Below, piece by piece: positions 9,158 to 9,975 of a stretch of DNA of 32,000 nt. This DNA comes from Candidatus Iainarchaeum sp. Its GTDB lineage: Archaea; Iainarchaeota; Iainarchaeia; Iainarchaeales; CSSED10-239. The translations under genes and the position numbers were made by a program. The DNA lies in contig JAQVTI010000004.1 in assembly GCA_028700115.1 (NCBI GenBank), forward strand, positions 1 to 32,000, written 5' to 3'. Within the stretch, counting starts at the first letter, position 1. Each line of letters opens with the position of its first letter. A model generated the notes under the pieces. The model did no database searches, was not told the origin of the DNA, and saw only the letters and a program-made list of their open reading frames with translations.

Positions 9158-9544
9158 ATGAAATACTATATAATTAACCATTCTTTTGATTCTTATGTGA
9201 AAACAAAAGAATATTGTGGATTTATTAATAAAGACGAAAGAAATATAGTTAATATTGGAGATTATATTATTTATTTTGGACAAGGGGTTATTTTTGGAAT
9301 ATTTGAAGCTATAGATTTAGTTGATAATGAATTTAATAATTGGAAAGGTAATTATCCTTATCAAATTAAATTAAAACCAATATATTTATCTCAAAGAGGT
9401 ATATTAGCTAAAACTTTTTCTGAAAAGTTTAAGTTATTAAGAGAAGATAATCAATATAGAAATATTGTTGAATTAAATGAAGATGAATATATTTTAATTA
9501 AAAATAGTATTTTAGAAAATAAGAAAGAAATTAAGGTTGTTTGA
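9158..9544 (+). CDS. small protein (128 aa), possible PUA-like (EVE/ASCH-type) beta-barrel; function unproven
   Basis: Starts 11 nt after the hsdR stop. The pattern resembles EVE-type domains: MKYYII at the N-terminus, IGDYIIYFGQGVIFGIFEAIDLV, YQIKLKPIYL, and C-terminal NIVELNEDEYILI. The assignment is by eye only. Confidence 0.4.
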   Translation: MKYYIINHSFDSYVKTKEYCGFINKDERNIVNIGDYIIYFGQGVIFGIFEAIDLVDNEFNNWKGNYPYQIKLKPIYLSQRGILAKTFSEKFKLLREDNQYRNIVELNEDEYILIKNSILENKKEIKVV

Positions 9545-9546
9545 TT

Positions 9547-9975
9547 ATGAATAATAAAATTTCTGGAGATCAAGGCGAAATTGATATAGTTAATTTAGTT
9601 CCTTGTCCTAATTGTGGAAAAAAACTTATGTTATTACCTAAAAATTATCCTTTATTTGATTTACAATGTACAGGATGTTCTTTTAGAGTACAAGTTAAGA
9701 CAAATAATTCTAAACCTAAATCTGAAATATTTGGTGCTGGGTGGGAAATAATGAATAAAGTTTTAAAATCAGGATATATGGTTCCTCCTTTAATTGTTAA
9801 TTTTAAATGGAAAGAAAAAGATGTATTTCATCAAAAAATTGTATTTTATCCATTTGTGCCTAAATCAAATATTAAAAAATACCAATTGTCTCCTACTGCA
9901 AGAAGAGCAAATTATAAAATGTTTAGATATACTAAATTAGATAAATTGCCTTGTTTTGTATTATTTGAAAAATAA
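9547..9975 (+). CDS. small protein (142 aa) with a CxxC...CxxC zinc ribbon inside a putative PD-(D/E)xK-like nuclease core
   Basis: The ATG at 9547 lies 2 nt after the TGA of the preceding gene (the track TTG at 9541 overlaps it). N-terminal GDQGEIDIV is followed by CPNCGKKL...(17 aa)...CTGC. The candidate D...(Q)xK triad is PLFDLQCTGCSFRVQVKT. Confidence 0.4.
   Translation: MNNKISGDQGEIDIVNLVPCPNCGKKLMLLPKNYPLFDLQCTGCSFRVQVKTNNSKPKSEIFGAGWEIMNKVLKSGYMVPPLIVNFKWKEKDVFHQKIVFYPFVPKSNIKKYQLSPTARRANYKMFRYTKLDKLPCFVLFEK

What the first reader, a model, noticed from the sequence alone, without database searches (positions are those of the whole stretch)
9158..9975. Two tiny genes coupled to the 3' end of hsdR: PUA/EVE-like reader plus Zn-ribbon PD-(D/E)xK-like nuclease
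The 128-aa gene starts 11 nt after the hsdR stop. The 142-aa gene starts 2 nt after the first gene's TGA, so both are likely co-transcribed with the Type I operon. The first gene shows the strand pattern of EVE/ASCH-type PUA-like barrels. In published comparative genomics these act as readers of modified bases and are recurrently fused or adjacent to nucleases in modification-dependent (Type IV-like) restriction. The second gene has GDQGE, then a CPNC...CTGC zinc ribbon, then FD...QVK. This reads like a minimal restriction-endonuclease fold interrupted by a zinc ribbon. A split reader-plus-nuclease add-on to a Type I system would cover phages or viruses that escape by hypermodifying their DNA. 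I do not recognise this as a described system. Both genes are more AT-rich than hsdMSR, which suggests they were acquired separately.
Basis: inference. Interest (0 to 1): 0.65.

Follow-up and report, generated by a model that had tools for sequence, protein, structure and literature searches.

The report
EVE reader and mini-DpnI after hsdR
Two small genes attached to the end of a DNA-restriction operon in a tiny symbiotic archaeon are a modified-base "reader" protein and a stripped-down relative of DpnI, the enzyme that cuts methylated DNA. Both belong to kinds already known, and they look like two separate add-ons, not a new two-part system.

Summary
Two intact genes (128 aa, 9158-9544; 142 aa, 9547-9975) follow hsdR by 11 nt and each other by 2 nt.

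Both fold guesses were right.
- Gene 1 models confidently as an EVE-type PUA-like barrel. It links by profile to proteins that score on Pfam EVE.
- Gene 2 is a zinc-bearing PD-(D/E)xK nuclease, but of a known family: the DpnI catalytic domain (PF06044). It keeps DpnI's Cys4 zinc site, helix Glu, Asp, Lys and methyl-pocket residues. It has Gln in place of Glu64 and no winged-helix domain.

The "split reader plus nuclease, undescribed system" reading is not supported.
- Gene 2 had over 1,700 relatives at 69-88% identity (best 120 listed), in Patescibacteria and DPANN archaea. They mostly stand alone; about 15% sit directly after an hsdR-type gene.
- Gene 1 belongs to a rare archaeal family that nearly always sits inside or beside Type I R-M operons. 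Bell, Wolf and Koonin described that association in 2020.
- Outside this lineage the two genes are never adjacent: 0 of 80 and 0 of 28 surveyed loci.

The composition argument is inverted. The small genes match the genome's GC; hsdM and hsdS are the outliers.

This scan has already reported both families on other DNA. No member of either has been tested experimentally.

The parts
3219..4799 (+). hsdM, Type I N6-adenine DNA methyltransferase subunit
   Evidence: Pfam N6_Mtase E 2.5e-102 and HsdM_N E 3.2e-23
4783..5979 (+). hsdS, Type I specificity subunit
   Evidence: Pfam Methylase_S, two stretches, E 1.5e-16
6003..9146 (+). hsdR, Type I restriction/translocase subunit with a T1RH-like_C tail
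   Evidence: Pfam HSDR_N, SWI2_SNF2, T1R_D3-like and T1RH-like_C, E 7e-82
9158..9544 (+). Gene 1: stand-alone divergent EVE-fold (PUA-like) protein, 128 aa, from a small DPANN family tied to Type I R-M operons
   Evidence: AF2 pLDDT 89.9. Foldseek matches EVE proteins 2p5d/2hd9 at E 5e-7 and TMq 0.66, then VcaM4I and YTH. HHalign gives 98.9% probability to relatives that score on PF01878. Neighbourhoods:
9547..9975 (+). Gene 2: minimal stand-alone DpnI-family nuclease, 142 aa. It has the catalytic domain only: E11, Cys4 zinc site C20/C23/C41/C44, D38, Q49-x-K51, and methyl-pocket equivalents L114/R120/Y123. It has no winged helix.
   Evidence: PF06044 at 49.5 bits against cut-off 26.7. PADLOC mREase_II 3e-8. 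phmmer to 4esj. AF2 pLDDT 89.8 and Foldseek 4kyw_A TMq 0.77, E 5.6e-8. Residue map

Best explanation
A DPANN archaeon's Type I R-M operon (hsdM-hsdS-hsdR) carries two independent defence-type genes at its 3' end. They are probably co-transcribed with it.

Gene 1 is a stand-alone, divergent EVE-domain protein. Its small archaeal family is almost always a component or immediate neighbour of adenine-methylating R-M operons. It most likely binds a modified base in DNA and works with the Type I complex, as Bell et al. proposed: either it extends restriction to modified invader DNA, or it reads methylation state.

Gene 2 is a self-sufficient, minimal DpnI-type nuclease. It is a monomeric PD-(D/E)xK domain stabilised by a Cys4 zinc site. 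It keeps DpnI's own methyl-binding cleft, so it most likely nicks and cuts N6-methyladenine DNA (Gm6ATC or a similar site) that the Type I enzyme cannot attack.

So the locus layers defence against unmodified DNA and against methylated DNA. The two small genes are separate modules that happened to land side by side in this lineage. They are not a split reader-plus-nuclease enzyme.

Shown: gene structure, folds, family membership, residue conservation, neighbourhood statistics. Inferred: co-transcription, ligands, nuclease activity, and any contact with HsdR.
For: Gene 2 belongs to the DpnI family by several tests.
- Pfam over the cut-off; PADLOC mREase_II; PDB sequence match to the catalytic domain of 4esj; fold match to 4kyw_A at TMq 0.77.
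- The spacing E..CxxC..D-x2-CxxC-x4-(E/Q)xK is the same as in DpnI (PMC3424567).
- DpnI's methyl-pocket and guanine contacts N48, L129, R135 and W138 map to N33, L114, R120 and Y123. L114 and Y123 are invariant in the family; N33 and R120 are conserved in at least 90% of rows. W138Y keeps partial activity, and Tyr or His occur naturally in DpnI homologues (PMC4117772).

Gene 2 relatives usually stand alone.
- 1733 proteins matched at E <= 0.001. The best 120 are 69-98% identical, and nearly all are 141-150 aa.
- Downstream neighbours are unrelated to one another.
- Upstream neighbours carry ResIII (HsdR-type or Type III res-type) in 11 of 73 loci and are otherwise diverse. One example lies 1 nt after hsdR in Woesearchaeota CP060219.

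Gene 1 is an EVE-domain protein tied to R-M operons.
- Fold and profile chain.
- 17 of 28 metagenome loci show Type I parts within the flanks. 7 of the other 11 are contigs of 2.5 kb or less.
- Among nearest neighbours N6_Mtase, Methylase_S and HsdM_N dominate, and none is DpnI.
- In two congeners the gene sits just upstream of hsdM. In other loci it follows hsdR or a 792-aa N6_Mtase.
- The literature describes this association (PMC7641849).

The two genes do not travel together: 0 of 80 and 0 of 28 loci. In 215 genomes of the phylum gene 1 is in 17 and gene 2 in 4. Both occur only in this genome and in G054, where they lie on different contigs.
Against: - No member of either family has been tested, so ligand, activity and specificity are inferred.
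- The Glu64 equivalent is Gln. It is invariant in the 30-row alignment and present in 79 of 80 surveyed homologues. Catalysis could therefore be weakened or lost.
- The 2-nt spacing and the same tandem in a sister assembly are compatible with functional coupling in this lineage.
- About 15% of mini-DpnI genes lie directly 3' of an hsdR-type gene, which could reflect a functional tie and not mere defence-island clustering.
- The host carries at least five or six PF01555 methyltransferases of unknown specificity. Self-compatibility of a Gm6ATC cutter is therefore assumed, not shown.
Confidence: 0.72

Rival explanations
1. One reading: the two genes form one split modification-dependent restriction enzyme. 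The EVE protein reads the modified base and recruits or licenses the zinc-bearing nuclease. In effect it would replace, in trans, the winged-helix reader that full-length DpnI carries in cis.
For: The genes are 2 nt apart on the same strand. The tandem is kept in a sister assembly. Full-length DpnI does use two readers (PMC3424567, PMC4117772). EVE-PD-(D/E)xK fusions are a known Type IV architecture (PMC7641849). The 57 nt upstream of an 88%-identical gene 2 on a short contig may encode a gene-1-like C-terminus.
Against: There is no co-occurrence outside this lineage: 0 of 80 gene-2 loci and 0 of 28 gene-1 loci. G054 has both genes on different contigs. The listed gene 2 relatives are single-domain and have no conserved neighbour. 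Gene 2 keeps DpnI's own methyl pocket. Gene 1's constant partner is the Type I or N6-MTase operon, not a DpnI gene.
Confidence: 0.1
2. Gene 2 is a catalytically dead or nick-only DpnI-like domain, because Glu64 is replaced by Gln. It would act as a sequence- and methylation-specific DNA-binding protein, for example a sensor or regulator of adenine methylation, and not as a restriction nuclease.
For: Gln is invariant at the Glu64 position, which ligates the site-1 metal in DpnI. For a restriction enzyme, the conservation is unusually high: the best 120 relatives are 69-98% identical across bacteria and archaea. That suggests constraint beyond an arms-race nuclease.
Against: The helix Glu (E11), D38 and K51 are all invariant, which would not be expected if catalysis were lost. 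From my own knowledge, not checked here: D...QxK and D...NxK active sites work in HinP1I, MspI and TnsA. The genomic context is dominated by defence and R-M genes.
Confidence: 0.12
3. Gene 1 does not extend restriction to foreign modified DNA. It reads the m6A mark written by its own HsdM (YTH-like) and uses it to restrain or tune HsdR, as self-protection or restriction alleviation.
For: Its fold matches YTH m6A readers almost as well as EVE proteins. The family is tied specifically to N6-adenine methyltransferase operons, both Type I and a 792-aa N6_Mtase. Its position in the operon varies and includes the first position, before hsdM.
Against: No direct evidence for any ligand. The best structural matches are EVE proteins and a 5mC/5hmC-dependent EVE-HNH enzyme. 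Type I is simply the commonest multi-gene R-M type, so the association with adenine methylation may be incidental.
Confidence: 0.2

Closest known systems
R.DpnI of Streptococcus pneumoniae (Type IIM, Gm6ATC-dependent; PDB 4ESJ, 4KYW; Pfam PF06044; PADLOC mREase_II) and the Dam-replacing proteins of Neisseria
   Same: The catalytic PD-(D/E)xK domain has the same order and spacing of helix Glu, CxxC, Asp, CxxC and (E/Q)xK. It has a Cys4 zinc site. Equivalents of N48, L129, R135 and W138 are conserved. The predicted fold matches at TMq 0.77.
   Different: Only 142 aa, with no C-terminal winged-helix reader. Gln replaces the metal-ligand Glu64. Tyr replaces Trp138, and Lys replaces Arg126. The family is confined mainly to Patescibacteria and DPANN archaea and is unusually conserved. 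Its activity is untested.
Stand-alone EVE proteins associated with archaeal Type I R-M systems (Bell, Wolf and Koonin 2020, BMC Biol 18:159, PMC7641849)
   Same: A single-domain EVE-fold protein in an archaeon, inside or beside hsdRMS. The family-wide association with Type I operons is confirmed here.
   Different: The sequence is too divergent to hit Pfam EVE directly. It is shorter (about 128 aa) than typical EVE proteins (about 145 aa). No ASCH partner was seen in the window. The family is very small: 27 clusters at 50% identity among 1.84 billion representatives.
EVE-nuclease Type IV restriction enzymes such as VcaM4I (EVE-HNH, PDB 6YEX) and EVE-PD-(D/E)xK or EVE-McrB fusions
   Same: An EVE reader next to a nuclease in a defence locus. 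VcaM4I's EVE domain is the third-best structural match. One remote relative, P0172, is an EVE-AAA_5 (McrB-like) fusion.
   Different: The nuclease belongs to a family with its own modification readout.
Defence genes embedded in or attached to Type I R-M operons (PrrC in EcoprrI; 'guilt by embedding', Payne et al. 2024, bioRxiv 10.1101/2024.01.29.577857)
   Same: Extra defence-type genes ride on a Type I operon. Related loci carry Abi_C or Fic in the same way.
   Different: That survey does not name DpnI or EVE. Here the genes are appended after hsdR, not nested between hsd genes.

Membership tests
DpnI family (Pfam PF06044, catalytic domain) | Sequence scores over the curated Pfam cut-off | tested here: met
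   49.5 bits against cut-off 26.7, residues 19-135 on profile positions 33-151. PADLOC mREase_II 3.1e-8.
DpnI family (Pfam PF06044, catalytic domain) | PD-(D/E)xK fold superimposable on the DpnI catalytic domain | tested here: met
   AF2 pLDDT 89.8. Foldseek best hit 4kyw_A at E 5.6e-8, TMq 0.77, rmsd 3.2. The next non-DpnI hits have E > 0.01.
DpnI family (Pfam PF06044, catalytic domain) | Cys4 zinc site: one CxxC between the helix Glu and the Asp, one CxxC between the Asp and ExK | tested here: met
   C20, C23, C41 and C44 are invariant in 30 homologues. The layout is as described for DpnI in PMC3424567.
DpnI family (Pfam PF06044, catalytic domain) | Catalytic residues E25, D53, E64, K66 | tested here: inconclusive
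   E11, D38 and K51 are invariant. The E64 equivalent is Gln49, invariant in the 30-row alignment and present in 79 of 80 homologues. Whether D...QxK is active in this family is untested.
DpnI family (Pfam PF06044, catalytic domain) | Methyl-binding cleft and guanine contacts (N48, L129, R135, W138) | tested here: met
   The equivalents are N33, L114, R120 and Y123. L114 and Y123 are invariant; N33 and R120 are conserved in at least 90% of rows. W138Y is partly active, and Tyr occurs naturally in homologues (PMC4117772). R126 is not kept (K111, variable).
Full-length R.DpnI-type Type IIM enzyme | C-terminal winged-helix domain that separately reads Gm6ATC | tested here: not met
   The protein ends at residue 142 and the match covers only the catalytic domain. 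Nearly all listed relatives are 141-150 aa; one is 214 aa and one is a 132-aa partial.
Full-length R.DpnI-type Type IIM enzyme | Cleavage dependent on N6-methyladenine in GATC | not testable with these tools
   Needs enzyme assays. The genome has no Dam-family (PF02086) hit over the cut-off and 1751 GATC sites at O/E 0.85. That is compatible with this activity but does not prove it.
EVE domain (Pfam PF01878, PUA-like) | Sequence scores on the Pfam EVE model | tested here: not met
   No EVE hit at E <= 1. The only signal is a weak NCBIfam PRK00809 hit at E 0.0025.
EVE domain (Pfam PF01878, PUA-like) | EVE-type PUA-like beta-barrel fold | tested here: met
   AF2 pLDDT 89.9, pTM 0.83. Foldseek matches 2p5d and 2hd9 at E 5e-7, TMq 0.66-0.67, prob 1.00, followed by VcaM4I, YTH domains and THYN1.
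EVE domain (Pfam PF01878, PUA-like) | Homology chain to bona fide EVE sequences | tested here: met
   The family profile finds remote relatives P0162, P0165, P0168, P0169, P0172 and P0173. They score 22.5-27.5 bits on PF01878 (cut-off 23). HHalign between the two sets gives 98.9% probability, E 2e-17.
EVE domain (Pfam PF01878, PUA-like) | Binds a modified base in nucleic acid | not testable with these tools
   Needs binding assays.
Type I R-M-associated stand-alone EVE (Bell et al. 2020) | Single-domain EVE gene inside or directly beside an hsdRMS operon, mostly in archaea | tested here: met
   Window: 11 nt after hsdR. Relatives: 17 of 28 loci have Type I parts. Congeners have the gene upstream of hsdM. 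The host is archaeal by NMD3 and Arc_PepC_II hits.
   0 of 80 and 0 of 28 loci. In the phylum, both genes occur only in this genome and in G054, on different contigs. The one other tandem is a near-identical sister assembly.

The most novel reading that the evidence does not exclude
In this lineage the EVE protein and the mini-DpnI have become functionally coupled to each other or to HsdR. The EVE protein could supply in trans the second modification reader that the trimmed DpnI lacks. Or both small proteins could dock on the Type I motor, so that one translocating complex restricts unmodified, adenine-methylated and otherwise modified DNA. The recurrent placement of mini-DpnI genes 1-2 nt after hsdR genes of different subfamilies would then be functional, not incidental.
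Probability: 0.1. Interest if true: 0.6.

Novelty: new member of a known kind. Interest (0 to 1): 0.3.

Why it matters
As a proposed new two-gene defence system it does not hold up, so its value is mainly corrective. Two things remain useful.

First, the mini-DpnI family is very large and strikingly conserved between ultra-small bacteria and archaea. It naturally lacks DpnI's second reader and has a D...QxK site. Testing one member would show whether the catalytic domain alone gives methyl-specific cutting, which could yield a compact m6A-dependent enzyme.

Second, the small EVE family tied to Type I operons is a clean test case for the untested 2020 prediction that EVE readers redirect or tune Type I restriction.

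Tried and rejected
- Direct Pfam, PADLOC and PDB sequence searches with gene 1 gave nothing usable. Only structure prediction and a profile chain placed it.
- I looked for a DpnI remnant after gene 1 homologues. The small ORFs downstream in L001 are unrelated.
- Both families are absent from IMG/VR. Gene 2 is absent from GenBank phages and has one weak hit (31% identity) among plasmids. So there is no evidence for a viral or plasmid origin.
- A tree of 81 mini-DpnI sequences was too poorly resolved to place the window's copy or count inter-domain transfers: 3 starred branches, and the careful search did not finish.
- A literature check for the HinP1I and MspI QxK/NxK active sites found nothing in the held library. 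That point rests on my own knowledge.
- I did not apply the sigma-70 promoter and terminator scan because the host is an archaeon.
- I rejected an ASCH reading for gene 1: no ASCH structure appears among the top 50 fold matches.

Full report
**Observation.** The window holds a co-directional run of genes:
- hsdM, 3219-4799
- hsdS, 4783-5979
- hsdR, 6003-9146
- a 128-aa ORF, 9158-9544
- a 142-aa ORF, 9547-9975

Pfam confirms the three hsd genes. HsdR carries HSDR_N, SWI2_SNF2, T1R_D3-like and T1RH-like_C. A convergent gene ends 17 nt after gene 2, so gene 2 closes the co-directional block. With only 11 and 2 nt between the genes there is no room for separate promoters. Both ORFs have many conserved homologues, so they are real genes.

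**Host.** The assembly is 0.96 Mb, 22.4% GC and about 89% complete. The window also encodes NMD3, a beta-CASP nuclease and an archaeal type II prepilin-peptidase C-terminus. The host is therefore a small-genome archaeon.

**Gene 2.**
- *Family.* It scores 49.5 bits on Pfam DpnI (PF06044; cut-off 26.7) and 3e-8 on PADLOC's methyl-directed Type II REase model. phmmer aligns residues 19-123 to residues 36-141 of the DpnI chain in 4ESJ. An AlphaFold2 model (pLDDT 89.8) matches DpnI chain 4kyw_A best, at E 5.6e-8 and TMq 0.77; unrelated nucleases follow only at E > 0.01.
- *Active site and zinc site.* The DpnI papers describe a helix Glu25, and a zinc ion held by two Cys between E25 and D53 plus two Cys between D53 and E64-x-K66. 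The catalytic residues are D53, E64 and K66 (PMC3424567; PMC4117772). Gene 2 has E11, C20/C23, D38, C41/C44 and Q49-V-K51. The Asp-to-Cys, Cys-to-Cys and Cys-to-(E/Q) spacings are identical, and all these residues are invariant in 30 homologues.
- *Methyl pocket.* DpnI's methyl-binding cleft and guanine contacts (N48, L129, R135, W138) correspond to N33, L114, R120 and Y123. L114 and Y123 are invariant; N33 and R120 are conserved in at least 90% of rows. W138Y DpnI keeps partial activity, and Tyr or His occur in natural homologues.
- *Differences from DpnI.* Gln replaces Glu64, there is no winged-helix domain, and Arg126 is lost. From my own knowledge, HinP1I, MspI and TnsA work with QxK or NxK sites. 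I could not document this in the held library.

**Gene 2 relatives.** The search found 1733 proteins at E <= 0.001. The best 120 are 69-98% identical and nearly all are 141-150 aa. Where a source names the organism it is Patescibacteria or a DPANN archaeon. I surveyed 80 loci from species-representative genomes.
- The gene directly upstream carries ResIII in 11 of 73 cases, of which 8 also have SWI2_SNF2. Their C-terminal types include T1RH-like_C, EcoR124_C and EcoEI_R_C. The other upstream genes are diverse.
- The downstream genes share no family in more than 2 of 76 cases.
- In Woesearchaeota CP060219 the gene starts 1 nt after hsdR. In another locus it survives beside hsdM and hsdR fragments.
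- The family was not found in IMG/VR viral contigs or GenBank phages, and only once, weakly, in plasmids.

Gene 2 is therefore a solitary, mobile, defence-island gene with a marked but partial preference for the 3' end of hsdR.

**Gene 1.** Sequence libraries gave nothing except a weak NCBIfam PRK00809 hit at E 0.0025.
- *Fold.* With a 22-sequence alignment AlphaFold2 gave pLDDT 89.9. Foldseek matched the archaeal EVE proteins 2p5d and 2hd9 (E 5e-7, TMq 0.66-0.67). Next came the EVE-HNH restriction enzyme VcaM4I, many YTH m6A readers, and THYN1.
- *Homology chain.* A profile search of 1.84 billion representatives found only 27 clusters. The remote ones score at or just around the Pfam EVE cut-off, and one is an EVE-AAA_5 (McrB-like) fusion. 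HHalign links the two sets at 98.9% probability.

**Gene 1 context.**
- Homologues lie directly after hsdR (L001), after a 792-aa N6_Mtase (L004), or in a Peptidase_M78/DUF4411 cluster (L007).
- In 28 metagenome loci, 17 show HsdR, HsdM or HsdS within the flanks. 7 of the other 11 are contigs of 2.5 kb or less.
- Among the two nearest ORFs on each side, N6_Mtase (8), Methylase_S (6) and HsdM_N (6) are the top families, and DpnI never appears.
- In two genomes of the same genus the gene sits just upstream of hsdM.
- Within the phylum it occurs in 17 of 215 genomes. This genome also has a second, decayed copy.

[quoted passage not shown] They predict that such systems also target modified DNA (PMC7641849).

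**Are the two genes a pair?**
- None of the 80 gene-2 loci holds gene 1, and none of the 28 gene-1 loci holds gene 2.
- In the phylum gene 2 is in 4 genomes and gene 1 in 17. They share only this genome and G054, where they lie on different contigs.
- The same tandem occurs in GCA_028691725.1, but that contig is a near-identical sister: gene 2 is 98% identical and the flanking genes are the same.
- A short contig with an 88%-identical gene 2 has 57 upstream bases that might encode a gene-1-like C-terminus, which is too little to judge.

Each gene is separately found right after hsdR elsewhere, and the DpnI domain carries its own methyl readout. The simplest reading is two independent modules stacked at the same favoured site.

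**Composition.** GC by gene:

| Gene or region | GC % |
|---|---|
| Gene 1 | 19.9 |
| Gene 2 | 24.7 |
| hsdM | 28.6 |
| hsdS | 28.2 |
| hsdR | 25.7 |
| Genome mean | 22.4 |
| Neighbouring genes | 15-20 |

The small genes look native or long-resident.

**Mechanism (inferred).** Gene 2 most likely acts alone, as monomeric DpnI does, by nicking each strand of adenine-methylated sites. It would cover DNA that methylation protects from the Type I enzyme. The genome has no Dam-family hit over the cut-off and GATC is not depleted (O/E 0.85). It does have at least five or six PF01555 methyltransferases of unknown specificity.

Gene 1 most likely binds a modified base and works with the Type I complex. 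It could recruit restriction to modified DNA, as Bell et al. propose, or read the system's own m6A mark. The data do not separate these two.

**Verdict.** The "new split reader-nuclease system" is not supported. Both genes are members of known kinds that remain experimentally untested. Earlier reports of this scan reached the same readings for both families on other DNA.

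Noticed in passing
G000:C37:4531-4872 (own genome, another contig; L142): A second, decayed copy of the gene 1 (EVE) family. It is 56% identical over residues 14-126 and has four in-frame stops (1 TAG, 3 TAA).
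   Followed up: partly
L019-L098; In the listed matches the mini-DpnI family is about 70-80% identical between Patescibacteria bacteria and DPANN archaea, and 1733 proteins matched at E <= 0.001. That is unusually high conservation for a restriction-type gene and implies transfer between the two domains. The tree was too unresolved to count transfers.
   Followed up: partly
L012:3354-5432: An intact mini-DpnI gene sits 2 nt after fragments of hsdM (HsdM_N only, 171 aa) and hsdR (C-terminal 380 aa). The small nuclease has outlived the Type I operon it was attached to.
   Followed up: no
G000, contigs C30, C38, C32, C18, C20, C1 (L145-L151): This genome of under 1 Mb has at least five strong PF01555 (N6/N4) DNA methyltransferase matches plus a weaker one. 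Several lie in open frames of 530-643 aa. No Dam-family gene scores over the cut-off.
   Followed up: no
window 1661-2464 and 2476-3144; L155:124-1598: A Schlafen/AlbA_2 gene and an unassigned 222-aa gene lie directly upstream of hsdM. They are kept in the same order in the sister assembly GCA_028691725.1.
   Followed up: no
P0172 (791 aa): A remote relative of gene 1 is fused to an AAA_5 (McrB-like) NTPase. This is an EVE-McrB-type architecture with the same divergent N-terminal EVE.
   Followed up: partly
L001:1635-2285 and L010:768-1925: Other Type I loci that carry gene 1 or gene 2 relatives also hold embedded Abi_C or adjacent Fic genes. These operons appear to collect add-on defence genes.
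   Followed up: no
L156:1-57: The 57 nt upstream of an 88%-identical gene 2 on a 1.7-kb contig can be read as ...AERICKDGIE*, which faintly resembles the C-terminus of the gene 1 family. This may be a second instance of the tandem, but the contig is too short to tell.
   Followed up: partly
window 11010-12677: A 555-aa protein with a C-terminal HNH_3 domain lies 1 kb downstream. An earlier report of this scan treats it as a membrane-tethered nuclease family.
   Followed up: no
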